From Candidatus Adlerbacteria bacterium (GTDB lineage Bacteria > Patescibacteriota > Minisyncoccia > Phycocordibacterales > SBAW01), in NCBI GenBank assembly GCA_027451965.1, contig DAIDHJ010000001.1, forward strand, positions 162,368 to 226,367: a DNA stretch of 64,000 nt, given 5' to 3'. The notes below the pieces were generated by a model. That model worked only from the letters and a program-made list of their open reading frames with translations, made no database searches and had not been told where the DNA came from. Both the position numbers and the translations under genes were made by a program. Below are positions 200 to 59,603 of the stretch, piece by piece (the stretch's first letter is position 1; each line of letters begins with the position of its first letter).

Positions 200-1375
200 T
201 TATACGGTACTATCAGTATCTTCTGCTAATTGACCGCTTTCCGTTGCTTCGACAATTTTCTCTCCGCCGATTGATTGGATATCAATACGCCAACCGGTAA
301 GTTTTGCCGCAAGGCGTACGTTCTGTCCTCCTCGTCCGATTGCAAGCGACTGCTGATCCTCCGATACTTTTACTTCTGCCTTATGCTCCTCCTCGTTAAT
401 TTCGACAGAAAGAATACGGGCAGGTGAGAGTGCTTCTTCGATAAAGACTTTTGGATCTTCAGACCATTCGATAATATCGATTTTCTCTCCACCGAGTTCC
501 GTAGTGACAGTTGAAACACGAACACCGCGCTGCCCTACCAGTGAACCGACGGGGTCAACATGCGGATCAGTTGAATATACGGCTACTTTGGAACGGCTCC
601 CTGCTTCTCGTGCAATGGATTTGAATACCACCGTGCCGTGCGCAACTTCAGGCACTTCTCCTTCAAAGAGTTTCGCAAGAAACTGCGGCTGTGCACGCGA
701 AAGGCGCAAATACATGCCGTGGGCACTCTCTTCTACTTCATACAACAGTGCGCGAATACGCTCTCCTTGGCGGTAGCGTTCCCCGGGAATTTGTTCATTA
801 TAAGGAAGGATGCCGGTAGCGCGGCCCAAGTCTACGTAGAGATTGCCGCGTTCCATTCGTTGCACGGTGCCGGTTACAATATCCCCTTGCCGTTTGCCAA
901 ATTCTGCAATGATAGATACTTTTTCCGCCTCACGGATTTTCTGAATGATGACCTGCTTTGCTGTTTGTGCTGCGATGCGTCCGTAATCACCTTTTGTCTC
1001 CAAGGGAAACACTAATTCATCACCTACCTGTGCATCGCGCTTTATGAGTTTGGCATCGGAAAGCAGGATATGCTGTTCGGGATTGAAATGAGGAAGCAGT
1101 TCTTCATCAGTGAGTTCCTGCGGTGCTTTTCCTGTTTCTTCAACAGCATCAAAGCGCACCGTAGATGCATCTACCACCACTTTTATCTGTGAGAATTCAG
1201 TCGTGCCGGTAGAAAGATCAAGATGTGCCCGAATGATCTGTCCTTTCTTGGCATATTCTTTTTTATATGCTGTTGCCAATGCAGCTTCAATCGCCTCAAT
1301 AACTTTTTCTCGCGGTATACCGCGCTCGCTCTCTAGCTCTCCGAGCACTGAGTTTATAACTTTCAGATCGAACAT
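200..1375 (-). CDS. nusA: Transcription termination/antitermination factor NusA
   Basis: 391 aa protein with an N-terminal NusA domain (MFDLKVINSVLGELESERGIPREKV...), an S1 region and tandem KH regions (GxxG motifs). The overall length fits NusA. Confidence 0.9.
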   Translation of the reverse strand: MFDLKVINSVLGELESERGIPREKVIEAIEAALATAYKKEYAKKGQIIRAHLDLSTGTTEFSQIKVVVDASTVRFDAVEETGKAPQELTDEELLPHFNPEQHILLSDAKLIKRDAQVGDELVFPLETKGDYGRIAAQTAKQVIIQKIREAEKVSIIAEFGKRQGDIVTGTVQRMERGNLYVDLGRATGILPYNEQIPGERYRQGERIRALLYEVEESAHGMYLRLSRAQPQFLAKLFEGEVPEVAHGTVVFKSIAREAGSRSKVAVYSTDPHVDPVGSLVGQRGVRVSTVTTELGGEKIDIIEWSEDPKVFIEEALSPARILSVEINEEEHKAEVKVSEDQQSLAIGRGGQNVRLAAKLTGWRIDIQSIGGEKIVEATESGQLAEDTDSTV

Positions 1376-1456
1376 ACGTAAAAATTGAAATTATGGGTAT
1401 TTCTGGCACAAAACAACCGCCCTCGGGGCGGTTTCCAGATATAAATATCGTAGTCC

Positions 1457-3211
1457 ATGAATTGTTGTTTGTCAATGTACGCTATACTAAAACGAGCTAT
1501 GCAGGTCGATGATGCACAACTGGGCGCTTTTCTGCTTGAAAGCGGTCTTCTATCGCGGCGTGATCTGCAAGATATCGAAACACATCGCACTACCACCGGC
1601 GTATCGTTACAAAAAGCAGTAACGCAAAGCGGCCTGTTATCGCAGGATGAATTTCGCCGAGCACTCGGTGCATTTCTTGGTATCCCATTCCTTGTATTGG
1701 ACGTGCATGCCATTCCAATTGATGTACTCACTACCATTCCAGAGCCGTTTGCACGTGCACATCATCTCATCGCGTTTGCTCGTTCCGGACAGACAGTGGA
1801 AATTGCAACACTCGAACCATCATTGCCTCCGTTGCCATTCTTATCTTCGCAGTTGCGTGTACTGGTTCGGCTCACTGATGCCGATAGTATGAAACGCGCA
1901 CTTCTTCGGTACCAAAAACATATCAAAGAAACGACGGGTGACTATATCGCGCGGCAGGTCCAGCATATTCCCTCCGGTCCCATTGCGGACATTGCACAGG
2001 CTGCAGAACGGCTTGCGGTTGCAGAAGTAGTTGACCTGGTGCTCAAGCATGCGCTCCTCTGTCATGCGAGCGACGTGCATATACAGCTTACTTCTGAGAA
2101 ATGCACGATTCGCTACCGCATACATGGTGTGTTATGTGATGCGTTTTTGCTGCCGTTGCACGTAGGTATGCATGTAAGCGCTCGGCTCAAACAGCTCGCA
2201 AAACTTTCTGTGCACACCAAACTGCCACAATACGGTCAATGCAAGGTGGAAGGCGATGTGCACGCGCGGCTCACTATTGCCAGCACCCCCACTCTTTTAG
2301 GAGAACAGCTCGTGGTACACATCATCCCGCACACGGCATCCAGAGGAGGATTCACACTCGAAGCATTGGGTTTTCATGGGCAATCGCTTGACCGCGTGCA
2401 TCGCGCACTGCAGCACCGTTCAGGATTGCTGTTAGTCTCTGGTCCAGCGGGTGCAGGAAAAACCACTACTCTGTATACATTGCTGGATGGACTTATTTCT
2501 CCTGAGAAACAGATTGTCACTGTAGAACAAGAGCGAAGTATCATGATTCCAGCAGTTGTGCAGTTGGAACGCACGCCGGACATATCACTGACAAACACTC
2601 TGCGCGCAGCACTGCGGCATGATCCTGACGTGCTCATGATAGACGCTATTGCCGATGAAGAAGTCGCAACACTTGCCTGCGCTGCGGCGAATCGAGGAGT
2701 GCTTGTATTGGCAGGCATAGAAGCGTATTCGGCGGGGGAGGGCGCTGCACTGCTGCAATCGCTCGTGCCTACCCTTCCTCTCGCTCCTATCCTTATCGGC
2801 AGTCTCGGTGTTTCTCAGGTACGGAAATTGTGTGACAAACGAGAAACGTACCGTCTTGCACGCGCACAAACGGAACAAATTGAATCTATTGCTGATCCGG
2901 TCCGCGTCCTCAATGCCCTCAAAAAGGAAGGCATGGTGGAAAAAAACGTTTCATGGAAAGAGCTGCTGTTTCCGCACGCGGTTTCCTGTGCACAGTGTGA
3001 TGCCGGATATAAAGGACGTATCGGTCTGCAGGAAGTGTTTCTCGTTTCACGTGCACTACAAGGTGCGTTGGAGAATCATGCAGATGCACTGACGATAGAA
3101 CGTATCGCATGGGAAGAGGGTATGCTTACCATTCCTGAAGATGGCATATACAAAACAGTAACCGGACTCACGACTCTTGCAGAGGTAGTGCGCGTGACAC
3201 AAGGAGAGTAG
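1457..3211 (+). CDS. GspE/PilB-family secretion ATPase homolog with degenerate catalytic motifs. It is an orphan, separate from the pilus operon.
   Basis: The N-terminal T2SE_Nter-like region (LLESGLLSRRDLQDIE...) and the Walker A motif LLLVSGPAGAGKTTTLYTLL are intact. The canonical Walker B motif DPDVIMVGEIRD reads DPDVLMIDAIADEE. The His box GHLVLSTLHTN reads NRGVLVLAGIEAY. Only one CxxC of the tetracysteine site is present (SCAQCDAGYKGRIGLQEV). The true start is probably an internal ATG (1475 or 1499). Confidence 0.75.
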   Translation: MNCCLSMYAILKRAMQVDDAQLGAFLLESGLLSRRDLQDIETHRTTTGVSLQKAVTQSGLLSQDEFRRALGAFLGIPFLVLDVHAIPIDVLTTIPEPFARAHHLIAFARSGQTVEIATLEPSLPPLPFLSSQLRVLVRLTDADSMKRALLRYQKHIKETTGDYIARQVQHIPSGPIADIAQAAERLAVAEVVDLVLKHALLCHASDVHIQLTSEKCTIRYRIHGVLCDAFLLPLHVGMHVSARLKQLAKLSVHTKLPQYGQCKVEGDVHARLTIASTPTLLGEQLVVHIIPHTASRGGFTLEALGFHGQSLDRVHRALQHRSGLLLVSGPAGAGKTTTLYTLLDGLISPEKQIVTVEQERSIMIPAVVQLERTPDISLTNTLRAALRHDPDVLMIDAIADEEVATLACAAANRGVLVLAGIEAYSAGEGAALLQSLVPTLPLAPILIGSLGVSQVRKLCDKRETYRLARAQTEQIESIADPVRVLNALKKEGMVEKNVSWKELLFPHAVSCAQCDAGYKGRIGLQEVFLVSRALQGALENHADALTIERIAWEEGMLTIPEDGIYKTVTGLTTLAEVVRVTQGE

Positions 3212-3221
3212 CGATTGTATA

Positions 3222-3989
3222 GTGAGTGATGTGAAGAAACTACTCGTTATTGCGAATTGGAAAATGTATCTATCGACTGGGGCGCAGGCAAAACACTTTG
3301 TCACCGCACTGCGCCGCAAAGATGCATTACTGCGCGCGGCCACGGTATGGATTGCAGCGCCATTCCCGCTCATCCCACAGTTCGCACAAGGAAAAAAATC
3401 GGTGATTAAATGGGGAGCGCAAACCGTTTCCAGTGCGACAGAGGGAGCGCATACGGGAGAAGTGTCTGCTCTAATGCTTAAGGATATCCGTGCATCGTTC
3501 GCCATTGTCGGTCACTCGGAGCGGCGTGCGGCAGGAGAAAGCGATACACAGATTGCAGCGGCGTTGCGCGCCACGGTAGTTGCAGGACTCACTGGGGTGC
3601 TGTGTGTTGGAGAGACACAACGTGATCAAGGCGGAGAACATTTTGAAACAATTGTAGAGCAACTCACGGCAGCACTCGCTTCGTTTCCGTCACAAGGAGT
3701 ATCGAAGCTCATCATTGCGTATGAACCAGTATGGGCAATTGGAAAAACCGCAGCGGACGCAATGAAACCAGGAGATCTTCAAGAGATGACCATCTTCATT
3801 CGCAAAACACTCACCGCGCTCCTTGATCGAGAAGCAGCACGTAAAATTCCCATCCTCTATGGAGGATCGGTGGAAGGAAGCAATGCGCGCTCCTTGCTTG
3901 AAGGAGGATACATTTCTGGATTTTTGGTAGGACATGCGAGCGCAGAGCTTGCATCGTTCACCGATATACTCGCTGCATGCAAAAAATAA
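3222..3989 (+). CDS. tpiA: Triosephosphate isomerase
   Basis: Motifs LVIANWKM, AIVGHSERR, IAYEPVWAIGKT and YGGSV are present. It begins with a GTG start. Confidence 0.9.
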   Translation: MSDVKKLLVIANWKMYLSTGAQAKHFVTALRRKDALLRAATVWIAAPFPLIPQFAQGKKSVIKWGAQTVSSATEGAHTGEVSALMLKDIRASFAIVGHSERRAAGESDTQIAAALRATVVAGLTGVLCVGETQRDQGGEHFETIVEQLTAALASFPSQGVSKLIIAYEPVWAIGKTAADAMKPGDLQEMTIFIRKTLTALLDREAARKIPILYGGSVEGSNARSLLEGGYISGFLVGHASAELASFTDILAACKK

Positions 3990-5104
3990 CATCGATCGCT
4001 GATGCACAGGTAGAAGGAAAGCGCGTGCTATTGCGCACATCGCTCAATGTGCCGATACGTGCAGATGGCACGGTAGGAGATCTGTTCCGTTTGCGTGCAG
4101 CCCTCCCGACTATCGAATGGCTCTCCCGGCATGGTGCATCCACCTGCGTACTGGCGCATTTGGGGCGCGATGGCGCATCTCTCAAACCGGTTGTAGAGAT
4201 ACTCGCATCTCTCACTACAGTACCTATACAATTTTTTGGAGGATCACTTGCTGAAGCACGTGCTCATCCCATTGCTCCGGGGAGCTGTGTAGTGCTCGAA
4301 AATATCCGCATACATCCAGAGGAAGAGGATAATGATCAGCAATTTGCCAATGCGCTCGCACAACTCGGCGATCTGTATGTCGACGATGCATTTGCGGATG
4401 CGCATCGCCGGCATGCATCTATCGTGAGCGTTCCGAAACTCCTTCCTTCCTACGCCGGCTTGCTTATGCTCAAAGAAATAGAACGCATTACGCCGGCCGT
4501 AACACCGCCCTCTCAATCGCTTGCGATCATTGGCGGCGCAAAATTTGAAACCAAAGAACCGCTTATCGCTCAACTGCTCACTCGTTATGAACGAGTGTTG
4601 CTCGGAGGGGCGCTCGCAAATGATTTGCTGAAGACACGAGGACTGCCGATCGGGAGTTCCCGCACCTCCGCCATCCCTATTCCAGTTGCTATTGCAGAAA
4701 ACGAACAGTTGGTAGCGCCCAAGGACGCCGTGCTCGTTGATGATGCATTGCACCGGCATCGTTGTGCTGGTATCAACGATGTACGCATAGCCGAACGAAT
4801 TGTTGATATTGGGCCTGAAACTGCAGGACTATGGGAATCATGCATTACGCAAGCGGCATTTGTGGTGTGGAATGGACCGATGGGAATTTATGAAGATGGA
4901 TTTGTTGACGGGACGGATGCTTTGGCAGAAGCGCTAAGTCGTGCAAATGTGCCTGCGGTGGTGGGAGGAGGTGATACGTTAGCCGCACTGCAAAAAATAG
5001 CATTTGATCCAGAAAAAATATTTCTCTCTACCGGAGGTGGAGCACTCCTGGAATTTCTTACTACGGGCACGCTTGCCGGTATCGAAGCACTCAAGCGTGT
5101 TTAA
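3977..5104 (+). CDS. pgk: Phosphoglycerate kinase
   Basis: N-terminal KRVLLRTSLNVP, together with glycine-rich nucleotide-binding segments (GGAKFETKEPLI, VVWNGPMGIYE, GGGDT). It overlaps the tpiA 3' end by 13 nt. Confidence 0.9.
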   Translation: MQKITSIADAQVEGKRVLLRTSLNVPIRADGTVGDLFRLRAALPTIEWLSRHGASTCVLAHLGRDGASLKPVVEILASLTTVPIQFFGGSLAEARAHPIAPGSCVVLENIRIHPEEEDNDQQFANALAQLGDLYVDDAFADAHRRHASIVSVPKLLPSYAGLLMLKEIERITPAVTPPSQSLAIIGGAKFETKEPLIAQLLTRYERVLLGGALANDLLKTRGLPIGSSRTSAIPIPVAIAENEQLVAPKDAVLVDDALHRHRCAGINDVRIAERIVDIGPETAGLWESCITQAAFVVWNGPMGIYEDGFVDGTDALAEALSRANVPAVVGGGDTLAALQKIAFDPEKIFLSTGGGALLEFLTTGTLAGIEALKRV

Positions 5105-5550
5105 GTAATTGCTGCTTTTATTTTCTCTGTAATACGTTCCGCTTCATCAGGCGGATAACTGTGTTGCGGCCAGTGTTTGTAGCCATCATGCAGAAATCGC
5201 GGAATGACATGCATGTGTGCATGAAAAATGATCTGCCCTGCAGCCTGGTCATTGTTCATACTGAGGTTAATGCCGTCAGCTTCCATTGCTTGTTTCACCG
5301 CTCTGGCCATTTTTTGCGTGGTATCCATGAGTGTATGCAGATCTGATGGAGCAATATCGTAAATATTGGCGGCGTGTGCTTTGGGAATCACCAAGGTATG
5401 CCCAGGGTTGTTGGGATGGATATCGAGAAATGCGAGCGTGTGTGCGTCCTCATAGAGCGTATATGCGGGAATAGAGCCTGATACGATACTGCAGAAGATG
5501 CATTCCATATTCCCTAGTATACTAAACGGCATGACGTATCGCGTGCGCAC
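5101..5550 (-). CDS. HIT-family (histidine triad) nucleotide hydrolase
   Basis: Contains CIFCSIV...HTLVIPKAHAANIYD...HAHMHVIPR (HxHxHxx triad). The likely true start is MECIFC at 5508. Confidence 0.8.
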   Translation of the reverse strand: MRTRYVMPFSILGNMECIFCSIVSGSIPAYTLYEDAHTLAFLDIHPNNPGHTLVIPKAHAANIYDIAPSDLHTLMDTTQKMARAVKQAMEADGINLSMNNDQAAGQIIFHAHMHVIPRFLHDGYKHWPQHSYPPDEAERITEKIKAAIT

Positions 5551-7180
5551 CCCATTTCACGAGGAATTACTCTATGATCTGTTGCACGCGAGAGGAATGA
5601 CCACAAAAGAGGAGCAGACAAAATTTCTTACGCCAGATTTTCTACGCGATTCACATGATCCGTTTCTGTTACCTGATCTCCCAAAAGCCGTAGAGCGGAT
5701 ACAGAGAGGAATAGCGAACCAGGAACCGATTGCCGTCTGGAGCGATTATGACTGTGACGGCATACCGGGCGGTGTCATGCTCGTCGAATTTTTTCGACTG
5801 ATCGGCTATCCCGTGCGGCACTACATTCCGCACCGGCACAAAGAAGGATATGGCCTCAACGAGGCGGGATTAACGCAGCTGGCCCAAGAAGGCGTACGTC
5901 TTATTATCACCGTCGATCTCGGTATCAGTGAACGGGATGCCGTAGAGTTCGCCAAAACGCTTGGCATCGATATCATCATCACTGATCATCATCTGGTATC
6001 GGGAAGAGTTCCCGATGCGCATGCGGTGATCAACCCCAAACGAGCTGACAATCAGTATCCGTTTGATGGATTGTGCGGCGCAGGAGTAGCATGGAAACTT
6101 GTACAAGGGATACTGAGCTGTAATCGATATGGTCTTAAGGAAGGTCAAGAGAAGTGGCTGCTCGATTTGGTAGGCATTGCGACGCTTGCTGATATGGTGC
6201 CGCTGCTCGATGAAAATCGTATGCTTGCTCGATACGGACTCATGGTAATGCGGCGCGCACGTCGACCGGGGATTGCCGCACTCCTCTCTTTGCTGCGTAT
6301 CCGTCCTTCAACGCTTACGGAAGATGATATTGGATTCATGATAGCGCCCCGTATCAATGCAGCATCGCGCATGGATGCACCTGAAACAGCCGCGCGATTG
6401 TTAGCAACGGGTGATACGGCGGAAGCGCGCACCCTTGCGCGCACCCTGCAGCAGCTCAATCAGCAGCGGAAAACACTTGTTGCTACCATTGCTAAAGAAG
6501 TAAATAAACGCCCCCTGGATCAGGAGGATGCGCCAGTCATCGTGATGGGTAATCCGAGCTGGCGTCCCGGCGTGCTCGGACTTGTCGCCAACTCATTGGC
6601 AGGAACGCATAAGAAACCGGTATTTCTCTGGGGAAGAGAGGGGGGAGATATGATCCGGGGATCCTGCCGCTCCGACGGCATACTCAATGTGGTGGAGCTC
6701 ATGCAGGGAGCGGGCGATGTATTTAGTGATTTTGGCGGCCACCATGCCTCCGGAGGTTTTTCACTCACACATGATCGTGTACCCGAACTAAGTAAGCGAC
6801 TCCAAGAATCATATCAGCGACTTCACGACGCATCCAGCGTTTTTCCAGATGCCATTGTGGAACGGGAGTTACCGCTGAGCGAAGTACTCCATGCGCATAA
6901 GGTATTGCTCCAGCTAGCGCCGTTCGGACAGGGGAATCCGAAACCACTATTTGTATTTCCGCGCGTCTCTATTGGAAATGTGCGCTCGTTCGGAAAGGGC
7001 GGTGAGCATGTGTCGCTACAGCTTTCAATGCATGACACTGCCATTCCTGCTATTTCATTTTTCATGACACCGGAAGCATTTCAGAAACCTCTGGAGGCGG
7101 GAATCACGGCGGACATCGTAGGGCACATAGAAACTGATTGGAAGGGTGCTTCAAGAATTCGCGTGGTTGATGTTATATAA
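5498..7180 (+). CDS. recJ: Single-stranded-DNA-specific exonuclease RecJ (DHH/DHHA1)
   Basis: DHH motifs DYDCDGI and ITDHH are present, with a C-terminal DHHA1 GGHxxAAG-like segment (FGGHHASGGF). The start is uncertain (5498 or the internal M at 5531). It is divergent with the HIT gene. Confidence 0.85.
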   Translation: MHSIFPSILNGMTYRVRTPFHEELLYDLLHARGMTTKEEQTKFLTPDFLRDSHDPFLLPDLPKAVERIQRGIANQEPIAVWSDYDCDGIPGGVMLVEFFRLIGYPVRHYIPHRHKEGYGLNEAGLTQLAQEGVRLIITVDLGISERDAVEFAKTLGIDIIITDHHLVSGRVPDAHAVINPKRADNQYPFDGLCGAGVAWKLVQGILSCNRYGLKEGQEKWLLDLVGIATLADMVPLLDENRMLARYGLMVMRRARRPGIAALLSLLRIRPSTLTEDDIGFMIAPRINAASRMDAPETAARLLATGDTAEARTLARTLQQLNQQRKTLVATIAKEVNKRPLDQEDAPVIVMGNPSWRPGVLGLVANSLAGTHKKPVFLWGREGGDMIRGSCRSDGILNVVELMQGAGDVFSDFGGHHASGGFSLTHDRVPELSKRLQESYQRLHDASSVFPDAIVERELPLSEVLHAHKVLLQLAPFGQGNPKPLFVFPRVSIGNVRSFGKGGEHVSLQLSMHDTAIPAISFFMTPEAFQKPLEAGITADIVGHIETDWKGASRIRVVDVI

Positions 7181-7616
7181 CAGGATGAAACAACTCACGA
7201 TTTATACCGATGGCGGCGCGAGAGGCAATCCCGGACCTGCGGGTATTGGAGCAGTATTGGTAGATGAGCAGGGAAAGGTGGTGAAGGAAATCTCCGAATA
7301 CCTGGGAGAAACAACGAACAATTTTGCTGAATATGAAGCATTGATCCATGCACTTACCGCAGCACGCGCACTCAGCGATCTGCATACGCATGTTGCGGTA
7401 TGCATGGATAGTGAACTGGCAGTGCGCCAGCTCAACGGCATGTATAAGGTAAAAGAGCCGACCCTCAAGCAGCAGTTTGCAAAAGTACAAGGGCTTCGCG
7501 ACTCCTTTTCGCACATTACGTTTACACATGTGCGCCGCGCACAGAATGCGCACGCAGATCGCCTGGTGAATCAGGCGATCGATGCGGCGTTAGGAAAGCG
7601 CCGCAAAGCGCTCTGA
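7146..7616 (+). CDS. rnhA: Ribonuclease HI
   Basis: Contains MKQLTIYTDGGARGNPGPAGIGAVL. The probable start is at 7185, just after the recJ stop. Confidence 0.8.
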   Translation: MLQEFAWLMLYNRMKQLTIYTDGGARGNPGPAGIGAVLVDEQGKVVKEISEYLGETTNNFAEYEALIHALTAARALSDLHTHVAVCMDSELAVRQLNGMYKVKEPTLKQQFAKVQGLRDSFSHITFTHVRRAQNAHADRLVNQAIDAALGKRRKAL

Positions 7617-8177
7617 CATCACCGACCAGTTAAGGTTTTTGAAAAATGCATCGATATAGGCACTGCGTCCGCCCGTGCCGAACTGGGCAAGGTATGCGTG
7701 TTCCCACACATCCAGTACGCAAATTGCCGGAAGCGATACAAGATGTCCTTGCATGTGCTCGTCCACCCATACATTGATGAATGCTTCTTGTGCTGGATCG
7801 TAGTACAGCACCGCCCATCCTACGCCGCGCATCATACCAACGGAGCGAAATTGCTGCTCCCACGCTGCAAAACTGCCAAACTGTTTTGTAAGGGCTTTAT
7901 GCAGTGGATCGTTGTCTGCAAGCTCCTTAGCGCCATGTTCCCATTGATCGAAATAGAGTTCATGCATGCGCATACCGTCCCATTCAAATGCGAAGCGTCG
8001 AACCGCTTCAGCAATAGCGGTGGTATGTTGCGCAGTATCTTTCCGCAAGTCTTCTAAAAGAGTGCTGAGGGCATTGGTATTCTTTACATATCCGCCATAC
8101 AGGCCGAGGTGTGCATCTACCAGTTCTTTTGAAATACCTTCAAGTGCTGGAAGGGAAAATTTTTTCTCTTGGTACAT
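7590..8177 (-). CDS. sod: Fe/Mn superoxide dismutase
   Basis: Contains LPALEGISKELVDAHLGLYGGYV...DVWEHAYLAQFGTGGRSAYIDAFFKNLNW, including the canonical DVWEHAYY-type metal-site motif. It overlaps rnhA convergently by 27 nt. Confidence 0.9.
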   Translation of the reverse strand: MYQEKKFSLPALEGISKELVDAHLGLYGGYVKNTNALSTLLEDLRKDTAQHTTAIAEAVRRFAFEWDGMRMHELYFDQWEHGAKELADNDPLHKALTKQFGSFAAWEQQFRSVGMMRGVGWAVLYYDPAQEAFINVWVDEHMQGHLVSLPAICVLDVWEHAYLAQFGTGGRSAYIDAFFKNLNWSVMSERFAALS

Positions 8178-33728: not shown

Positions 33729-34247
33729 TTAGTGATCTTCGTAAATTTGATTATTAGTGAAAGGGCACGATCCGTTACACCAACTAGAACAGTTGTACAC
33801 ATATGATTTCCATTGTTTTACTGCACATCTATTTGGACTATTGGGATCTTCAAGTTGTGCTATGAGGTCATAGTTTGAGCCATCCGAATTTGCCGCATAC
33901 GCGTATGAGTAACTCCCGTTTGACCAAGGATTTCCAGAGGTGTTGAGCGGGTCGGTAGGGAGCTGAGCCAGGTACGGAGCAAGCATAGTCTGCAGTGCGC
34001 CCCATTGAGTGGCATTATTACTTACACACCACCCGCTGGTGTATGCACAAGTGCCTTGAGGGTATGTCCCATGATCGTTCGCGTATTCTTCTAACGCCAA
34101 TTGAATAGTATGTAGATCGGATTCACGACGAGCGTCTCGCGCTTTAGCGCGAGCACTATTTAACGAAACAAGAATTATGGATGCCAAAATGCCAATGATG
34201 GCGATGACGACAAGTAATTCAATAAGGGTGAATCCTCTGTCTTTCAT
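33729..34247 (-). CDS. Type IV pilin (prepilin with class III signal)
   Basis: [39 protein letters not shown] carries the G/FTLIE cleavage and methylation motif. The C-terminus is Cys-rich. Confidence 0.8.
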   Translation of the reverse strand: MKDRGFTLIELLVVIAIIGILASIILVSLNSARAKARDARRESDLHTIQLALEEYANDHGTYPQGTCAYTSGWCVSNNATQWGALQTMLAPYLAQLPTDPLNTSGNPWSNGSYSYAYAANSDGSNYDLIAQLEDPNSPNRCAVKQWKSYVYNCSSWCNGSCPFTNNQIYEDH

Positions 34248-34508: not shown

Positions 34509-35006
34509 ATGCGAAATCGAGGCTTTACGCTCATTGAACTTCTTGTCGTCATCGCCATCATTGGTATTCTCGCTTCAATTGTACTCGTATCTCTCAATTC
34601 AGCTCGTACTAAAGCACGAGATGCAAATCGAGTCGCTTCGCTACAAGAAATGGCGAAAGCAATCAGTCTTGCAGATACTGGTATACCAGTTCCGCTTGTC
34701 GGGTGCGTTAGTGGACCAACAGCAAACGTGAATACCTGTACGGGCCCTTCTCCCATCAATTTTAATAGCACGAACTACGGCGATCCATTGGTTGGAGGTG
34801 CCGGACCAAATTGTTTGTATAACAGTACGAAACCTTGCCAGTACACCATTTGGACGCAAGACGCTGCTTCTACTGGCGTGGGGGGTGCAACTACTGAAAA
34901 TTATGAAATTTGTGCTTTCCTTGAAGTCGGTTCTGGTCCGCTCCCTGCTGGATTAGTGCATGTGGGAAGTGATACAAGCGGTGCAGTAGAACCTGGATGT
35001 CCTTAA
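34509..35006 (+). CDS. Type IV pilin, paralog of the 55990..56481 pilin
   Basis: [52 protein letters not shown]…[38 protein letters not shown]. It is near-identical in layout to the 55990 product. Confidence 0.8.
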
Positions 35007-49100: not shown

Positions 49101-50180
49101 ATGGCGTTTTCTATTGGATCATTTTTCTCAAAAGAGCAAAAAAGCGTAGTGGGTATTGATATCGGCACTTCGGCCATAAAAGTGGTGCAGCTACGGCGCG
49201 ATCACGGCAAGGTCATTTTGGAAACGTACGGTGCTATTGCCTTGGGTCCTTATGCAGGATTGGAAGTCGGACGGGCCACCTCACTTCCTGTTGAAAAAAT
49301 TACCGAGGCGCTCAAGGATGTTATTCGGGAAGCACGAGTCACTACTACTGATGCGGCAGTTTCTATTCCCTATGCCTTGAGCCTTATTTCCATCATTAAA
49401 CTGCCGACATCAGTCGAAAAAAAGCTGGCACAAGTCGTGCCGCTTGAAGCCCGCAAATATATTCCCGTTCCCATCAACGAAGTGCAATTGGATTGGTTCG
49501 TGCTTTCGGGAGGAGGGAAGGAGGCAACGCCAGGAGGAAAACTGGAAGTGCTGATGGTGGCGATACATAACGATACGCTCACTAATTTCAAAAATATTAT
49601 CAGTGGCGCTGCGCTCACCCCCGCATTTTTTGAAATTGAAGTGTTTAGTACGGTTCGTTCAGGACTTGATCGAGGTATCGCGCCGCTTGCAGTGGTTGAT
49701 ATGGGAGCGGCTACCACCAAATTTTATGTGGTAGAGCGCGGCTTAATTCGAGAAAGCCACATCATCAATCATGGTGGACAAGATCTTACGCTCGCTGCCT
49801 CCCGCGCGCTTAATATCAGCGTGGCACAGGCAGAGGAACGAAAACGCAAATTCGGGCTTCTTCCAGAGGCAGGGCAAGAACTCAACCAGGCGCTCAGCCT
49901 TTCCTTGGAACCCCTCCTTTCAGAGCTTACGCGTACCGTTGCTGCATACGAACAGCGTATGAACGAGTCGCTTGAAGCAATGGTGATTACCGGAGGCGCA
50001 GCGACGATAAAAGGATTTAAAGAATTCGCACAGACGAGACTGCAGAATGAAATACGCCTCGCAGATCCGTTTGGAAAAACCCAAGCACCGGCGTTTTTGG
50101 AAGGAATACTCAAAGAGGCAGGACCGGAATTTTCTGTAGCGGTAGGATTGGCACTGCGTCGCCTCCAAGAACAGGGGTAA
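49101..50180 (+). CDS. pilM: Type IV pilus assembly protein PilM (actin-like ATPase fold)
   Basis: VVGIDIGTSAIKVVQL…, at the head of the pilus operon. Confidence 0.85.
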   Translation: MAFSIGSFFSKEQKSVVGIDIGTSAIKVVQLRRDHGKVILETYGAIALGPYAGLEVGRATSLPVEKITEALKDVIREARVTTTDAAVSIPYALSLISIIKLPTSVEKKLAQVVPLEARKYIPVPINEVQLDWFVLSGGGKEATPGGKLEVLMVAIHNDTLTNFKNIISGAALTPAFFEIEVFSTVRSGLDRGIAPLAVVDMGAATTKFYVVERGLIRESHIINHGGQDLTLAASRALNISVAQAEERKRKFGLLPEAGQELNQALSLSLEPLLSELTRTVAAYEQRMNESLEAMVITGGAATIKGFKEFAQTRLQNEIRLADPFGKTQAPAFLEGILKEAGPEFSVAVGLALRRLQEQG

Positions 50181-50231
50181 TTCTGTTGATAGAAATACCC
50201 TTGAAGAAATTTTTAACGCTATACTATATAT

Positions 50232-50906
50232 ATGGACTCTCCTGTTCCTTCTTCGTTCATACCTAAAAAGGCCTTTACTCCCACTCCACTACCTACTCCT
50301 TCGGTCGGAGGAAATGGCATTATATATGCCGTATGCCTCTTTTTGTTTGTTGTTTCGCTTTTGGCCGCAGGAGGAGTATTCGCCTACCAAGCCTATTTGA
50401 CACAAACGATTGCGGATAACGGCGCTATTTTAACAAAAGATCAAACAGCTCTTGATTTTCCAGCAATTGAGGATTTGGTACGCCTTGATTCTCGCATAAC
50501 ACAAGCAAAAACCCTCCTCGCACGGCATGTTGCCCCGTCCTCTATTTTTGCATTTCTCTCTCAAGAAACGCTGCAGAATGTACAATTCACCACGTTTAAG
50601 TACGATATCCAGCCGGACGGATCAGCAACTATAAAACTTGATGGAGTTGCTGATTCATTCTCTACCGTTGCCTTGCAGAGCGATCAGTTAAGCAACAGTA
50701 CCTTGCTCAAGGATATTCTGTTCACCAATCTCAATACGAATCCCAATGGGCAAGTTACGTTTACGGTACAAGCAACGGTAGTTCCTGCTCTATTCCTGTA
50801 TAGCTCAACACTGGGAACCCCGGTATCAACAACTCCTACAGTTTCAGCAACAACTACACCTGCAACTACAAGCGGAACATCCACCGCCACATCTTCACAC
50901 CCATAA
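50232..50906 (+). CDS. pilN: PilN-like bitopic pilus assembly protein
   Basis: Single TM (IIYAVCLFLFVVSLLAAGGVFAY), a periplasmic domain and a Thr/Ser-rich tail. Its position after pilM supports the call. Confidence 0.6.
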   Translation: MDSPVPSSFIPKKAFTPTPLPTPSVGGNGIIYAVCLFLFVVSLLAAGGVFAYQAYLTQTIADNGAILTKDQTALDFPAIEDLVRLDSRITQAKTLLARHVAPSSIFAFLSQETLQNVQFTTFKYDIQPDGSATIKLDGVADSFSTVALQSDQLSNSTLLKDILFTNLNTNPNGQVTFTVQATVVPALFLYSSTLGTPVSTTPTVSATTTPATTSGTSTATSSHP

Positions 50907-50908
50907 CT

Positions 50909-51451
50909 ATGATGCGTATTATTATGCCACTCCTTCTTCTCGCAGCCGCCATCGGGTTATTTGTGGTATATACCAACCCAACCTACCAGCAGGTACAAGC
51001 GCAAAGTGCCCAAGCTTCGCAGTTAAATGATGCGCTCCTCAAAGCGCAGCAGCTGCAAAGTTTGCGCGATCAGCTCATGGCAAAGCGCAATGCCTTTGCT
51101 GCAAGCGATCTCACGAAACTGCAAAACATTCTTCCAGATAATGTCGATAACATACGGCTTATTCTCGATATCAATAATGTTGCCTATCGGCATGGGTTGA
51201 CCTTGAGTAACCTGAAGTTAAATACCAGTTCTGATTCGCAAGGGAATAATACCGTTGTTGGTTCCACCGGTCCCATAGGTTCATTGCAAATAGGGTTTTC
51301 CGTTACCACTGACTACAACACATTCATTGCATTTCTTCAGGATCTTGAACACAGCGAGCGATTGATCGATATTACGGATATTTCATTTGTCACAGATACC
51401 AGTAGTCTTACTACGTATAACATTACCTTCCGCACCTATTGGCTTCATTAA
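50909..51451 (+). CDS. pilO: PilO-like pilus assembly protein
   Basis: TM plus coiled-coil (QQVQAQSAQASQLNDALLKAQQLQSLRDQL), then a beta-rich C-terminus. It follows pilN directly. Confidence 0.6.
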   Translation: MMRIIMPLLLLAAAIGLFVVYTNPTYQQVQAQSAQASQLNDALLKAQQLQSLRDQLMAKRNAFAASDLTKLQNILPDNVDNIRLILDINNVAYRHGLTLSNLKLNTSSDSQGNNTVVGSTGPIGSLQIGFSVTTDYNTFIAFLQDLEHSERLIDITDISFVTDTSSLTTYNITFRTYWLH

Positions 51452-51455
51452 TACT

Positions 51456-51776
51456 ATGAATTTTATTAAAAAAAATTTGCTATTTATTCTCGGAGCAGTG
51501 ATTGTATTGGGAGGATTGTTTTATTATATGTCTAACAGCGGTGCGCCAACGCCACTTCTCACATCGAGCGCTTCAAGTAACTCTCCAGTTACACAGCAAC
51601 TACTCGTCTCTCTTTCCAGTCTACATACGATCACGCTTGATAATGCAATCTTTTCTGATCCAGTATTCGTCTCTTTGACGGATTTCGGAGTACAAATTGC
51701 TCCTGAAAATGTTGGCCGAGGAAATCCATTCGCACCGTTTGGTACTGCAGTTCCGGCAAAACAGGGGCATTCATAG
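51456..51776 (+). CDS. Small TM-anchored pilus-operon protein (PilP-position), function unknown
   Basis: MNFIKKNLLFILGAVIVLGGLFYY… ending GRGNPFAPF. The internal start was chosen because the track ORF overlaps pilO. Confidence 0.45.
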   Translation: MNFIKKNLLFILGAVIVLGGLFYYMSNSGAPTPLLTSSASSNSPVTQQLLVSLSSLHTITLDNAIFSDPVFVSLTDFGVQIAPENVGRGNPFAPFGTAVPAKQGHS

Positions 51777-51784
51777 TATGTGTT

Positions 51785-53629
51785 ATGGATCTTATACATA
51801 TACTTCTTCAAAAAGGCATACTCCAACAAGAACAGCTTTCTGGGCTTGAGCAAGCTATAAAAAGTTCCGGTGCTTCACAGGAAGCACTTCTTGCAAATGC
51901 TGGCATCGCTCTAGAAGATATTCTGAAAGCAAAAGGGGAGTACTACAACATTCCCACCCGCATTTTAGGTAGTAAGACGCTTTCATTCCAAACACTTCGG
52001 TTAATACCGGAGGAATCCGCACGTCATTATGGATTCGTACCGCTCGGCATTGTTGATAGTGCGCTTGAAGTAGGTGTTACTGATCCAGACAATTTGGCAG
52101 CGCGTGATGCTCTCTCATTTATATCCGGGAAATTGGGCATGCCGTATAAGGTATTTCTTATTACGGAATCTGATTTTGAAAAAGTTCTTCAGCAATATAA
52201 AGGTCTCTCGGGAGAGGTGGGAACCGCACTCACCGAATTGGAAACAGATGCTGCGGAAGAAAAGAAGGGACAGCAAGGGAAGCGATTCACTTCCATAGAA
52301 GAGGAAACGATAACCGACACTTCGAGTGAAGCAGTTACCGAAGATGCGCCTATTACAAAAATTGTAGCAACCATTTTGCGCCACGCATCCGAACAGCGAG
52401 CATCCGACATTCACATAGAACCGTTCCCGGACGAAAGTCGTATTCGATTTCGTATTGACGGTGTTTTAATCACGAGCATCACGCTTCCTGCAAAAATACA
52501 CCCTGCGGTTGCCGCACGTATTAAAGTGCTTTCAAATATGCGTCTTGATGAAAAACGGCGTCCACAAGACGGTCGTTTTTCAGCGCGTATTTCTGGAGAA
52601 AAAGTAGATTTCCGTGTCTCCACGTTTCCGACTTATTACGGCGAAAAGGTTGAAATGCGTATTTTGGGAACATCTGCAATGGCAATCAAACTGGAGGATC
52701 TTGGTTTTTCAGACCACAATCGGGAAATGATTCGTGCGGCTATTAAAAAACCCTACGGCATGATCCTCATTTCCGGACCTACCGGTTCAGGAAAATCAAC
52801 CACTCTGTATGCTATTCTGAATGAAATTGACCGAGACAAACAAAATGTATTGTCTTTGGAAGATCCGGTCGAATATACCATTCCAGGCGTCTCACAATCG
52901 CAAGTACGTCCAGAAATAGGATATACCTTCGCTACCGGACTACGCACTACGCTTCGACAAGATCCAAACGTTATCATGGTGGGTGAGATCCGAGATGCAG
53001 AAACGGCAGATTTGGCCGTGCAAGCGGCACTTACCGGACACCTGGTGCTCTCTACCATTCACACTAATAATGCTATAGGTATTGTCCCTCGACTACTTGA
53101 TATGAAAATAGAACCGTACCTTATTCCGCCAGTACTTATTCTTGGTATGGCACAGCGTCTGGTACGGACACTTCCTCCAAATGGCGGAAAAAAGGTGCCG
53201 GTTGAAGGAAGTATACAAACGATGATTGAAAAAGAGTTTTCTGACCTGCCGGCACAATTCAAAGATGAGATACCCCCTATGAAAGAAATCTATCGTTTGC
53301 ATCCAACTCCAGAATTTCCCACTGGTACCAAAGGACGTGTTGCAGTATCAGAGCTCTATGAAATGACACCGGAACTCGAACGAGCCATCGTTGCAAACAA
53401 ACCTGAACAAGATTTATCAGCCATTGTGCGTAAATACGGTATGCTCACCATGAAAGAGGATGCTATCATTAAGGCTGCTCGAGGAATAATTCCTCTTGAA
53501 GAGATAAATACCTTAGGAGGTGGTTTTGATTTTTCCGATACAGATGCTGATCACATGCCGGCTCCTACACCCACCGTGCTTGGGGAAGATATTGCTTCCG
53601 AAGATCTTACAGACGAGGTACAGCTATGA
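51785..53629 (+). CDS. pilB: Type IV pilus extension ATPase PilB (GspE family), canonical motifs intact
   Basis: Walker A ISGPTGSGKSTTLYAIL, Asp box LEDPVEY, Walker B DPNVIMVGEIRD and His box GHLVLSTIHTNNA. Confidence 0.9.
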   Translation: MDLIHILLQKGILQQEQLSGLEQAIKSSGASQEALLANAGIALEDILKAKGEYYNIPTRILGSKTLSFQTLRLIPEESARHYGFVPLGIVDSALEVGVTDPDNLAARDALSFISGKLGMPYKVFLITESDFEKVLQQYKGLSGEVGTALTELETDAAEEKKGQQGKRFTSIEEETITDTSSEAVTEDAPITKIVATILRHASEQRASDIHIEPFPDESRIRFRIDGVLITSITLPAKIHPAVAARIKVLSNMRLDEKRRPQDGRFSARISGEKVDFRVSTFPTYYGEKVEMRILGTSAMAIKLEDLGFSDHNREMIRAAIKKPYGMILISGPTGSGKSTTLYAILNEIDRDKQNVLSLEDPVEYTIPGVSQSQVRPEIGYTFATGLRTTLRQDPNVIMVGEIRDAETADLAVQAALTGHLVLSTIHTNNAIGIVPRLLDMKIEPYLIPPVLILGMAQRLVRTLPPNGGKKVPVEGSIQTMIEKEFSDLPAQFKDEIPPMKEIYRLHPTPEFPTGTKGRVAVSELYEMTPELERAIVANKPEQDLSAIVRKYGMLTMKEDAIIKAARGIIPLEEINTLGGGFDFSDTDADHMPAPTPTVLGEDIASEDLTDEVQL

Positions 53630-54687: not shown

Positions 54688-54693
54688 ACATAT

Positions 54694-55908: not shown

Positions 55909-55989
55909 AGTGGCTTTTATCCACAGCGATCCTTTAAAAAGGATGTACTAACGGTATACTTAAAATATCTTACAAATCTGGCTTTATCC

Positions 55990-56481: not shown

Positions 56482-56577
56482 TATAAATTAATAGAAAAAC
56501 TTCCCATCACACGGGAAGTTTTTCTTAGTTAGAACAAAGTCATTATGGTTAGTGTGTATTAAGGTACAATAGAATAT

Positions 56578-57102: not shown

Positions 57103-57107
57103 ATGAA

Positions 57108-59601: not shown

Positions 59602-59603
59602 AC

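What the first reader, a model, noticed from the sequence alone, without database searches (positions are those of the whole stretch)
1457..3211. Orphan PilB/GspE homolog with degenerate Walker B, His-box and Zn-site
It shares the overall architecture and an intact P-loop with the canonical PilB at 51785, but loses several catalytic motifs. The GEIRD Walker-B glutamate context reads IDAIAD. Both His of the His box are absent (RGVLVLAGIEAY). One CxxC of the tetracysteine site is missing. It is encoded 48 kb from the pilus operon, between nusA and tpiA.

This looks like a nucleotide-binding but probably non-hydrolysing paralog, a candidate regulatory or scaffolding pseudo-ATPase for the pilus machinery. 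A possible promoter (TATACT at 1484..1489) just upstream of the ATG at 1499 would make it leaderless.
Basis: partly seen in the sequence, partly recalled or inferred. Interest (0 to 1): 0.5.

Follow-up and report, generated by a model that had tools for sequence, protein, structure and literature searches.

The report
Conserved dead PilB-like pilus ATPase
This gene encodes a full-length, well-folded copy of the motor protein that normally pushes out type IV pili, but its ATP-splitting residues are gone; tiny-genome Paceibacterota bacteria have nevertheless kept it, after losing the second pilus system it once powered, so it probably does a non-motor job.

Summary
Window 1499..3211 (+) encodes a 570-aa PilB/GspE-family protein. 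Its P-loop is intact, but the catalytic Glu, both His-box histidines, both arginine fingers and most of the Asp box are replaced.

It is not a decaying pseudogene:
- dN/dS is about 0.13.
- At least 130 full-length relatives form one clade in an NJ tree.
- The AlphaFold model has pLDDT 93 and matches GspE, PilF and PilB.

It is also not a simple paralog of the operon PilB. It is the positional ortholog of a catalytically intact ATPase. In other Paceibacterota that ATPase sits at the same nusA|X|tpiA-pgk-HIT-recJ locus, followed by its own platform protein (T2SSF) and three prepilin-like genes. Those partner genes are absent next to all 11 degenerate or partly degenerate members examined, including the window.

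Constraint was lost mainly in the ATPase core (47 of 82 lost positions). The N-terminal docking domain kept its constraint.

The Walker A lysine is missing in 31% of the family, so nucleotide binding is not a conserved property of the family.

Best reading: a pseudo-ATPase left over from a lost second pilus system, probably a non-motor docking or regulatory part of the remaining pilus machine. That role is inferred, not shown. I found no description of such a protein in the literature searched. I class it as a new variant of a known kind.

The parts
1499..3211 (+). CDS of the degenerate PilB/GspE-like protein (570 aa plus stop). The longest ORF starts at 1457 and the database record starts at 1475.
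1483..1488 (+). TATACT, a -10-like box 10 nt upstream of ATG 1499. Its position is conserved in relatives.
1499..1924 (+). N1D (GSPII/MshEN-like domain, residues 1-142), including IPEPFAR at 1736..1756. Constraint is retained here.
2024..2368 (+). N2D (residues 176-290).
2219..2239 (+). Arginine-finger 1 region, KLPQYGQ in place of RLPQDGR.
2261..2284 (+). Arginine-finger 2 region, HARLTIAS. Thr259 stands where the conserved Arg of FRVS should be.
2369..3208 (+). C-terminal ATPase domain (residues 291-570). The fold is kept but the catalytic constraint is lost.
2441..2467 (+). Walker A / P-loop, GPAGAGKTT (intact).
2522..2542 (+). Asp box, VEQERSI in place of (L/I)EDP(V/I)EY. Only the Mg-coordinating Glu343 is kept.
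2627..2656 (+). Walker B, DVLMIDAIAD in place of D(V/I)IMVGEIRD. The catalytic Glu is replaced by Ala383.
2693..2734 (+). His-box position, RGVLVLAGIEAYSA in place of TGHLVLSTLHTNSA.
2828..2842 (+). LCDKR, the first half of the former Zn site (Cys445 kept, Arg448 at the second Cys position).
2987..2998 (+). CAQC, the second CxxC (Cys497, Cys500), invariant in the crown clade.
200..1375 (-). nusA, the divergent upstream synteny anchor.
3222..5104 (+). tpiA-pgk, starting 10 nt downstream in the same orientation. This is the downstream synteny anchor.
49101..60128 (+). The complete type IV pilus operon: pilM, pilN-like, pilO-like, catalytically intact pilB (51785..53629), pilT, pilC, pilins, pilD and minor pilins. 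It is the only pilus machine visible in the window and the presumed partner.

Best explanation
The gene encodes a pseudo-ATPase descended from the extension ATPase ('PilB2-like') of a second type IV pilus gene cluster. That cluster ancestrally sat between nusA and tpiA in Paceibacterota.

**Origin.** In the window's lineage the cluster's platform protein and prepilin-like genes were lost. The ATPase then lost its catalytic machinery: the catalytic Glu, the His box, the arginine fingers and most of the Asp box. The protein has still been kept at full length under purifying selection across a large radiation.

**What it retains.**
- The whole PilB/GspE fold.
- The N-terminal N1D domain, which in active relatives is thought to dock the motor onto the stator (PilM/GspL-type proteins).
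- The N2D-CTD linker.
- A three-cysteine cluster.

**Most likely role (inferred).** It no longer turns over ATP. This particular protein may still bind ATP, since its P-loop and Mg-Glu are intact and it has Ala at the catalytic Glu position, like the classic E->A trap mutant. It probably acts as a non-motor docking, scaffolding or gating component at the cytoplasmic base of the one remaining pilus machine (pilMNO-B-T-C at 49-60 kb). It could do this as its own ring or mixed with PilB.

**Shown versus inferred.** Shown here: family membership by sequence and fold, the loss of each catalytic residue, orthology by synteny and tree, purifying selection, and the domain pattern of constraint. Inferred: the partner and the role.
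For: **Family and fold.**
- Pfam T2SSE and MshEN match.
- The AF2 model has pLDDT 93.2.
- The top Foldseek PDB hits are GspE 4pht, PilF 5oiu and PilB 5tsh, with E-values of 1e-35 to 1e-30.

**Catalytic loss.**
- Alignments to solved PilF and PilB show each substitution.
- Across 137 degenerate members, the catalytic Glu is kept in 29, His1 in 5 and His2 in 0. Arginine finger 1 is kept in 87, arginine finger 2 in 73, the Walker A Lys in 95 and the Asp-box Mg-Glu in 133. All of these positions are at or near 100% in the 101 proteins classed as intact.
- The roles of these residues are defined in PMC5424180.
- M. xanthus PilB E391A binds ATP like wild type but has no ATPase activity and assembles no pili (PMC5544727).

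**Origin.**
- The synteny nusA(-)|ATPase|...|tpiA-pgk-HIT-recJ holds for both kinds of locus.
- Intact ATPase loci L003, L004, L005 and L006 carry T2SSF next to the ATPase. In L003 and L004 three prepilin-like genes follow.
- Clearly degenerate loci lack T2SSF: the window, L001, L002, L027, L085, L086, L087, L088 and the P0004 contig. L089 ends about 330 bp past the ATPase and shows only the nusA side.
- In the NJ tree the degenerate clade is monophyletic in 99% of bootstraps. It is nested in the intact nusA-tpiA lineage in 98%, and the operon PilB is excluded in 100%.
- With 239 sequences, 135 degenerate or partly degenerate proteins form one clade.

**Selection.**
- dN/dS is 0.14 against a near-identical strain (2 non-synonymous, 5 synonymous changes).
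- dN/dS is about 0.13 against a 61%-identical relative.
- The 33-member alignment has 29 invariant and about 65 near-invariant columns.

**Domain pattern of constraint.**
- Of 82 positions that are at least 90% conserved in intact sisters but not in the crown clade, 47 lie in CTD core residues 291-442 (p = 5e-4) and only 5 lie in N1D.
- Of 84 positions conserved in both groups, 25 lie in N1D (p = 8e-5).
- N1D is thought to interface with the stator (review PMC11656802).

**Co-occurrence with an intact operon PilB.** Matching values in the longest-contig column (774435, 424352, 420382 bp) suggest, but do not prove, that both proteins lie on the same contig.
Against: - There is no direct evidence for any partner or for binding to PilM, PilC or PilB.
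- The gene is never next to pilus genes in the crown clade. It sits in front of glycolytic tpiA-pgk.
- Only 64 kb of a roughly 548-kb genome is visible, so a second platform gene elsewhere cannot be excluded.
- The Walker A lysine is lost in 31% of the family and the P-loop is hypervariable. Any nucleotide-dependent mechanism therefore cannot be general.
- The protein evolves fast: 42% identity to the L001 relative, where the operon PilB ortholog (P0222) is 69% and NusA 79%. That is also compatible with a weakly selected function.
- The trees are neighbour-joining only, and long-branch effects are possible.
- Genomic context was examined for only 11 degenerate or partly degenerate members, the window included.
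Confidence: 0.6

Rival explanations
1. The protein has been repurposed for a function unrelated to pili. Examples would be a signalling or ligand-sensing protein using the MshEN-like N-terminus or the P-loop, or a factor tied to the tpiA-pgk operon or to DNA uptake and repair (recJ, rnhA and comEC lie nearby in relatives).
For: - In the crown clade the gene lies immediately or within a few kb upstream of tpiA-pgk, and never beside pilus genes.
- M. xanthus PilB has a signalling role separable from its motor function (PMC5544727).
- There is a weak, sub-threshold match to the MshE c-di-GMP motif model (20 bits against a cut-off of 38).
Against: - The position upstream of tpiA-pgk is inherited synteny shared with the intact ATPase clusters. 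It therefore carries no functional signal.
- The c-di-GMP motif is not met: the first copy has Gln for the key Arg (QLG for RLG) and the second copy lacks RLG altogether (SLQ) (read from the sequence).
- The domain that keeps its constraint is the one used for stator docking in the family.
Confidence: 0.22
2. The protein forms mixed hexamers with the catalytically active operon PilB (or PilT). It would act as non-catalytic subunits that tune motor output, as alpha subunits do in F1-ATPase. This is a special case of the best explanation.
For: - The fold, the N2D-CTD linker GFTLExLG and the Asp-box Glu are conserved. In PilB that Glu makes an inter-subunit salt bridge with an arginine finger.
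- Matching longest-contig values suggest that it shares a contig with an intact PilB.
- Interactions between different pilus ATPases have been reported, and PilB-TfpB hetero-oligomers have been proposed (PMC11656802).
Against: - It is only 27% identical to the operon PilB.
- The arginine fingers and the QRLVR region are not conserved in the clade.
- No multimer prediction was possible with these tools.
Confidence: 0.12
3. It is a functionless relic, slowly decaying and kept open only by chance or because its DNA carries signals for tpiA-pgk expression.
For: - Its partner genes are gone and the catalytic site is eroded in different ways in different members.
- Its evolution is accelerated: root-to-tip distance 1.86 against 1.15.
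- A promoter-like site for tpiA lies inside its 3' end.
Against: - dN/dS is about 0.13-0.14.
- At least 130 mostly full-length relatives exist at 30-60% identity, in genomes of 0.4-0.8 Mb, with dozens of invariant residues.
- The AF2 model is highly confident.
- A role at the DNA level would not preserve the protein sequence.
Confidence: 0.05
4. It is still an active ATPase that uses non-canonical residues. For example, Asp382 recreates a classical hhhhD Walker B.
For: - VLMID reads as a canonical Walker B aspartate.
- The P-loop and the Mg-Glu343 are intact.
Against: - No acidic residue follows Asp382 (Ala383).
- Both histidines and both arginine fingers are lost.
- No alternative residue is conserved across the clade at these sites.
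- An E->A change at this position abolishes PilB ATPase activity.
Confidence: 0.04

Closest known systems
PilB / GspE / PilF extension ATPases of type IV pili and type II secretion (Pfam T2SSE; PDB 5TSH, 5OIU, 4PHT)
   Same: It has the same three-domain architecture (N1D, N2D, CTD) and the same predicted fold. The P-loop, the Mg-coordinating Asp-box Glu, the N2D-CTD linker and most N1D signature residues are shared.
   Different: - The catalytic Glu, both His-box histidines, both arginine fingers and two Asp-box acids are replaced.
- It scores less than 40% of the PilB equivalog cut-off.
- No platform (T2SSF) gene lies beside it.
The catalytically intact ATPase of the nusA-tpiA pilus cluster in other Paceibacterota (for example P0046 in L003). 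It is comparable to PilB2 of the second pilus system of Saccharibacteria TM7x (PMC11623550).
   Same: - It occupies the same chromosomal position.
- It belongs to the same lineage in the NJ tree, at 36-40% identity.
- The WK...F...C..GY region and the two-to-three-cysteine pattern are shared.
   Different: - The intact proteins keep every catalytic residue and are followed by T2SSF and prepilin-like genes.
- The window protein has lost both features and evolves faster.
- Equivalence to TM7x PilB2 itself was not tested.
TfpB of Acinetobacter baylyi, a second extension ATPase that cooperates with PilB in one pilus system (review PMC11656802)
   Same: It is an additional PilB-family protein encoded away from the main pilus operon, and may act on the same machine.
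   Different: TfpB is catalytically competent. The window protein scores 222 bits against the TfpB model, whose cut-off is 850.
Engineered Walker B mutant PilB(E391A) of Myxococcus xanthus, and the signalling role of PilB (PMC5544727)
   Same: It has Ala at the catalytic Glu position. The mutant binds ATP but neither hydrolyses it nor assembles pili, and PilB can act independently of motor activity.
   Different: That is a laboratory point mutant. Here many further catalytic residues are lost naturally, and the state is fixed in a whole clade.
FlaH (ArlH) of the archaellum, an ATP-binding, essentially non-hydrolysing partner of the motor ATPase FlaI (own knowledge; paper PMC6011876 listed)
   Same: The concept is the same: a nucleotide-binding but non-motor P-loop protein associated with a type IV filament motor.
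   Different: FlaH is a KaiC/RecA-like protein and is not homologous to the motor itself. The protein here is a dead copy of the motor.

Membership tests
PilT-like / T2SSE secretion ATPase superfamily (structural membership) | Significant match to Pfam PF00437 over the N2D and CTD domains | tested here: met
   E 1.9e-59, 201.7 bits against a cut-off of 24.9, residues 170-565. The operon PilB scores 376 bits and the intact sister 428 bits.
PilT-like / T2SSE secretion ATPase superfamily (structural membership) | PilB/GspE fold | tested here: met
   AF2 pLDDT 93.2. Foldseek top hits are 4pht, 5oiu, 5tsh and 1p9r, with E-values of 1e-35 to 1e-32.
Functional type IV pilus extension ATPase (PilB equivalog) | Score above the TIGR02538 equivalog cut-off | tested here: not met
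   254.5 bits against a cut-off of 675.65.
Functional type IV pilus extension ATPase (PilB equivalog) | Walker A GxxGxGK[ST] | tested here: met
   GPAGAGKTT, residues 315-323. However, the Lys is lost in 42 of 137 family members.
Functional type IV pilus extension ATPase (PilB equivalog) | Atypical Walker B hhhhG followed by the catalytic Glu (GE[IM]RD) | tested here: not met
   IDAIAD: Gly->Asp382, Glu->Ala383, Arg->Ala385.
Functional type IV pilus extension ATPase (PilB equivalog) | His box with two histidines (TGHxxxSTxHT) | tested here: not met
   RGVLVLAGIEAY: His->Val401, His->Glu408.
Functional type IV pilus extension ATPase (PilB equivalog) | Two arginine fingers in N2D | tested here: not met
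   Gln247 and Thr259 stand at the two positions.
Functional type IV pilus extension ATPase (PilB equivalog) | Asp box ED..E, with the Mg-coordinating Glu | tested here: inconclusive
   Glu343 is kept (133 of 137 in the family). The following Asp is replaced by Gln, and the second Glu by Ser.
Functional type IV pilus extension ATPase (PilB equivalog) | Tetracysteine Zn site | tested here: not met
   Three of four cysteines are present (C445, C497, C500; Arg448). This is not diagnostic here, because the intact relatives have two cysteines and the operon PilB has none.
Functional type IV pilus extension ATPase (PilB equivalog) | Encoded with a cognate platform protein (T2SSF/PilC) | tested here: not met
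   There is no T2SSF next to it. The only one in the window is pilC at 54694. The same holds for the ten other degenerate or partly degenerate contexts examined; a further locus, L089, ends too close to the gene to tell. The rest of the genome was not visible.
Functional type IV pilus extension ATPase (PilB equivalog) | ATP hydrolysis and pilus assembly activity | not testable with these tools
   This needs biochemistry or genetics.
MshE-type c-di-GMP receptor N-domain (MshEN) | Tandem RLGxx(L/V/I)(L/V/I)xxG(L/V/I)(L/V/I)xxxxLxxxLxxQ motifs | tested here: not met
   The first copy is QLGAFLLESGLLSRRDLQDIETHR (Arg->Gln, terminal Gln->Arg). The second copy, SLQKAVTQSGLL..., lacks RLG. The NF053729 model scores 20.4 bits against a cut-off of 38. 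The motif definition is from own knowledge.
TfpB accessory extension ATPase | Score above the NF053534 cut-off | tested here: not met
   222 bits against a cut-off of 850.
Pseudogene | Frame disruption, dN/dS near 1, or patchy retention | tested here: not met
   The ORF is intact. dN/dS is 0.13-0.14. At least 130 mostly full-length relatives exist.

The most novel reading that the evidence does not exclude
The crown clade would be the first natural pseudo-ATPase component of a type IV filament machine. It would be a dead PilB2 that survived the loss of its own pilus system because its conserved N1D docks on the stator of the remaining pilus (PilM/PilC). There it would gate or prime access of the live motors PilB and PilT, or enter mixed hexamers with them. 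This would add a previously unrecognised, widely conserved regulatory layer to the pili on which ultra-small episymbiotic CPR bacteria depend.
Probability: 0.3. Interest if true: 0.7.

Novelty: new variant of a known kind. Interest (0 to 1): 0.55.

Why it matters
- **What databases call these proteins.** Type IV pili are among the few elaborate machines that CPR/Patescibacteria keep, and they are needed for host attachment and motility in the cultivated members (PMC11623550). Public databases label these proteins simply 'PilB' or 'GspE family'. Pilus-system counts and metabolic reconstructions for Paceibacterota therefore over-count active extension motors.
- **Why retention is notable.** A 1.7-kb gene for a dead enzyme is kept under purifying selection in genomes of about 0.5 Mb, across more than a hundred clusters at the 50% identity level. 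That argues for a non-catalytic function worth testing.
- **What it offers the field.** It is a natural separation-of-function allele of PilB, with docking kept and the motor lost. That bears on open questions raised in the PilB review: what N1D binds, and whether different pilus ATPases cooperate or co-assemble (PMC11656802).
- **An evolutionary record.** It also documents how a pilus system is dismantled. A partly degenerate member (L090, Walker B Glu and second His still present) already lacks its neighbouring platform gene, which hints that the partner genes went before the catalytic site finished eroding. This rests on one locus and a ladder-like NJ tree.

Tried and rejected
1. **Genome-contig scan with the degenerate-clade alignment.** Only L005, L006, L007 and L027 were useful. 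The window's own genome and most clade members were not retrieved, so context had to come from exact-protein look-ups.
2. **Search for decayed remnants of T2SSF or pilin genes.** I looked between the ATPase and tpiA in L002, L085 and L027. There was no similarity and no prepilin motifs, only variable small ORFs. I cannot say whether these are remnants.
3. **c-di-GMP-binding MshEN reading of the N-terminus.** Rejected, because the key Arg/Gly positions are not met and the model score is below threshold.
4. **The ~1000-aa hits in the representative search.** I considered them as possible dead-plus-live fusion proteins. Both halves have intact motifs, so they are a different family.
5. **First tree attempt.** It timed out and was redone with my own distance code.
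6. **Literature searches.** I searched for a naturally degenerate PilB/GspE paralog and for pilus pseudo-ATPases and found none. This covers only the open-access library held here.
7. **Taxonomic name of the window's genome.** It could not be obtained. The cluster look-up gives no names for it. Related proteins are labelled Paceibacterota or Adlerbacteria.
8. **The -35 candidate.** The TTGTCA upstream of TATACT is only 8 nt away, so it is not a -35 for this gene. Read on the other strand, it is the -35 of a nusA-directed promoter-like site.
Full report
**1. What is at the coordinates.**

The ORF list shows a 584-aa ORF at 1457..3211 (+). It lies between nusA (200..1375, minus strand) and tpiA-pgk (3222..5104, plus strand).

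Three in-frame ATGs are possible starts: 1457, 1475 (used by the database record P0001) and 1499. I take ATG 1499, giving 570 aa, for two reasons:
- Thirty-two relatives begin with the equivalent of MQVD at ATG 1499.
- A TATACT/TATAAT box lies 7-10 nt upstream of that ATG in the window, L088, L089, L085, L027 and L001.

Such a spacing would give a transcript with a leader of about 0-4 nt, so the leaderless idea is plausible but unproven.

**2.

- The protein matches Pfam T2SSE (E 1.9e-59) and MshEN.
- It reaches only 254 bits on the PilB equivalog model, whose cut-off is 675.
- It is 27% identical to the operon PilB at 51785..53629.

HMMER alignments to solved PilF and PilB structures, and profile alignment of 246 relatives, fix the register:

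| Motif | Canonical | This protein |
|---|---|---|
| Walker A | GxxGxGK[ST] | GPAGAGKTT, intact |
| Asp box | EDPVEY | EQERSI, only the Mg-coordinating Glu343 kept |
| Walker B | VGEIRD | IDAIAD, catalytic Glu -> Ala383 |
| His box | TGHLVLSTLHTN | RGVLVLAGIEAY |
| Arginine fingers | two Arg | Gln247 and Thr259 |

McCallum et al. (PMC5424180) assign these residues to Mg coordination, water activation, gamma-phosphate sensing with inter-chain coupling, and phosphate binding. They report them as essentially invariant in the whole PilT-like family. In M. xanthus PilB, E391A alone abolishes ATPase activity and pilus assembly while leaving ATP affinity unchanged (PMC5544727). ATP hydrolysis by this protein is therefore very unlikely.

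The zinc-site remark needs correction. The protein keeps three cysteines (C445, C497, C500) and has Arg448 at the fourth position. For comparison:
- The window's own, otherwise canonical, operon PilB has none of the four.
- Most of its orthologs have two.
- The catalytically intact sister ATPases have two.
- The crown degenerate clade keeps three invariant cysteines, with His (13) or Arg (12) at the fourth position.

The cysteine pattern is thus a lineage trait and not part of the degeneration.

**3. It is a conserved family, not a one-off.**

- A search of 5.8 billion proteins gave more than 1,100 hits. The top 120 split into about 32 proteins with the same degenerate signature and about 86 fully intact 583-aa proteins. 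All are from Paceibacterota/Patescibacteria.
- A profile search of 1.84 billion 50%-identity representatives added about 100 more degenerate cluster representatives.
- In NJ trees the degenerate proteins form one clade: 99% bootstrap with 86 taxa, and 135 of 138 together with 239 taxa.
- That clade is nested in the intact 583-aa lineage (98%). The window's operon PilB lies outside (100%).
- Branches are long, with a root-to-tip distance of 1.86 against 1.15.

**4. Where it came from.**

Exact-protein look-ups show that intact and degenerate proteins occupy the same chromosomal slot: nusA(-) | ATPase(+) | ... | tpiA-pgk-(HIT)-recJ.

- **Intact ATPase loci (L003, L004, L005, L006).**
  - A T2SSF platform protein follows the ATPase in all four loci.
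  - In L003 and L004 three large proteins with prepilin-type N-termini come next.
  - One of the three matches N_methyl and one matches PilX_N weakly.
  - In L005 and L006 the 3-4 kb beyond T2SSF was not annotated.
- **L007.** The same cluster continues into pilM.
- **Clearly degenerate members.**
  - No T2SSF is nearby in any of them: the window, L001, L002, L027, L085, L086, L087, L088 and the P0004 contig.
  - tpiA follows directly, or after a short stretch of variable small ORFs. L089 is too short to show what follows the gene.
- **Partly degenerate, early-branching members.**
  - L090 still has the Walker B Glu and the second His, yet it is already an orphan between nusA and tpiA.
  - In L091 the ATPase is followed by distant pilM/pilN-like genes.

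The simplest history is this. An ancestral second pilus cluster at this locus lost its platform and pilins in this lineage, and the ATPase then eroded at its active site. Saccharibacteria TM7x offers a comparison, with two systems whose PilB1 and PilB2 are both intact (PMC11623550).

The window contains only one pilC and one pilM. The rest of the roughly 548-kb genome could not be inspected.

**5. It is maintained by selection.**

- Against a near-identical strain (L088) there are 5 synonymous and 2 non-synonymous differences, giving dN/dS 0.14.
- Against the 61%-identical relative (L089), dN is 0.30 with saturated dS of about 2.3, a ratio of about 0.13.
- The 33-member alignment has 29 invariant and about 65 near-invariant columns.
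- In the window-versus-L001 genome pair the protein is 42% identical. NusA is 79%, the operon PilB ortholog (P0222) 69%, RecJ 64%, TpiA 53% and HIT 45%. It is fast-evolving but far from neutral.
- AlphaFold gives pLDDT 93.2 with the full N1D-N2D-CTD architecture. Foldseek returns GspE, PilF and PilB as top hits.

**6. What is constrained and what is not.**

I compared the crown degenerate clade (82 sequences) with 100 intact sisters.
- 82 positions that are at least 90% conserved in the intact proteins are no longer conserved. Of these, 47 lie in the CTD nucleotide-binding core (residues 291-442; odds ratio 3.2, p = 5e-4) and only 5 lie in N1D.
- 84 positions are conserved in both groups, and 25 of them lie in N1D (p = 8e-5).

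N1D is the domain thought to connect PilB/GspE to the stator (PilM/GspL-type proteins) (PMC11656802). The GspE-GspL complex 4PHT is the best full-length structural match.

Within the family the P-loop is hypervariable. The Walker A Lys is lost in 42 of 137 members, and the closest relative has GAPGTVKT. The Asp-box Glu is kept in 133 of 137. In PilB that Glu also makes an inter-subunit salt bridge.

Nucleotide binding is therefore plausible for this protein but cannot be the conserved function. Fold, docking domain and perhaps ring assembly are what selection preserves.

**7. Mechanism: best estimate and rivals.**

| Reading | Confidence |
|---|---|
| Non-motor docking, scaffolding or gating component of the surviving pilus machine (operon at 49-60 kb, with catalytically intact PilB and PilT). 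The 'dead, conserved, derived from a lost second system' part is about 0.85-0.9. The pilus-associated role alone is about 0.45. | about 0.6 |
| Repurposing to a non-pilus role | 0.22 |
| Mixed hexamers with PilB (a sub-case of the first) | 0.12 |
| Functionless relic | 0.05 |
| Cryptic activity | 0.04 |

None of the partner claims is shown. They rest on the domain pattern of constraint and on knowledge of the family.

**8. Comparison with known systems, and novelty.**

- By sequence and fold it belongs to the T2SSE/PilB-GspE family. By catalytic criteria it fails membership as a functional extension ATPase.
- The closest functional analogies are TfpB, FlaH and the engineered PilB E391A.
  - TfpB is a second, active extension ATPase acting on one machine.
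  - FlaH is a non-homologous ATP-binding partner of the archaellum motor.
- The 2024 review section on multiple PilB homologs mentions no catalytically dead homolog. Five full-text searches found none.
- Databases annotate these proteins simply as PilB or GspE.
- I class it as a new variant of a known kind, with moderate interest (0.55).

**9. Limits.**

- The trees are neighbour-joining only.
- Genomic context was examined for 11 degenerate or partly degenerate members (window included) and 5 intact members, counting L007.
- Only 64 kb of the genome is visible.
- No multimer modelling and no experiments were possible.

Noticed in passing
window 1415..1475 (minus strand), upstream of nusA: A promoter-like TTGACA-17-TACGAT (1475..1447) is followed by a GC-rich hairpin (1433..1415) and GTTTTGTG, about 40 nt before the nusA start. 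The hairpin is conserved in L088, L089 and L002, with a variant in L085. It looks like a leader attenuator, possibly for NusA autoregulation.
   Followed up: partly
window 51785..53629 (operon PilB), residues about 455-525: The otherwise canonical, catalytically intact operon PilB has none of the four Zn-site cysteines that are described as essential in PilB/GspE. Of its 120 orthologs, 108 have only two. The intact nusA-tpiA sister ATPases also have only two.
   Followed up: partly
window 33948..34247 (-) and 34515..35000 (+): Two additional type IV pilin genes lie far from the pilus operon. One is 75% identical to the pilin at 55990..56481.
   Followed up: partly
database proteins P0264, P0271, P0276, P0278, P0282 and others (about 980-1020 aa): These are tandem fusions of two complete PilB ATPase cores in one polypeptide. 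Both halves have intact Walker A, Walker B and His-box motifs. They form a separate, apparently undescribed architecture.
   Followed up: partly
window 5498..8177: The gene order here is recJ - rnhA - sodA(-). Relatives (L001, L086, L087 and the P0004 contig) have comEC between rnhA and sodA. No ComEC match exists anywhere in the 64-kb window.
   Followed up: partly
window 3194..3223: A promoter-like GTGACA-18-TATAGT lies inside the 3' end of the ATPase gene. Its -10 box overlaps the tpiA GTG at 3222. This suggests that tpiA may also have a very short leader or none.
   Followed up: no
L002:9669-13798, L085:9681-11452, L027:11648-17838: In some relatives the slot between the degenerate ATPase and tpiA holds variable small ORFs, several with predicted membrane segments. 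They have no Pfam hits and no similarity to the lost platform or pilin genes.
   Followed up: partly
L091:848-6599: An early-branching, only partly degenerate family member (P0369) has Walker B Gly->Ser and second His->Cys. It is followed directly by distant pilM/pilN-like genes rather than by tpiA. This is a different stage or route of cluster rearrangement.
   Followed up: partly
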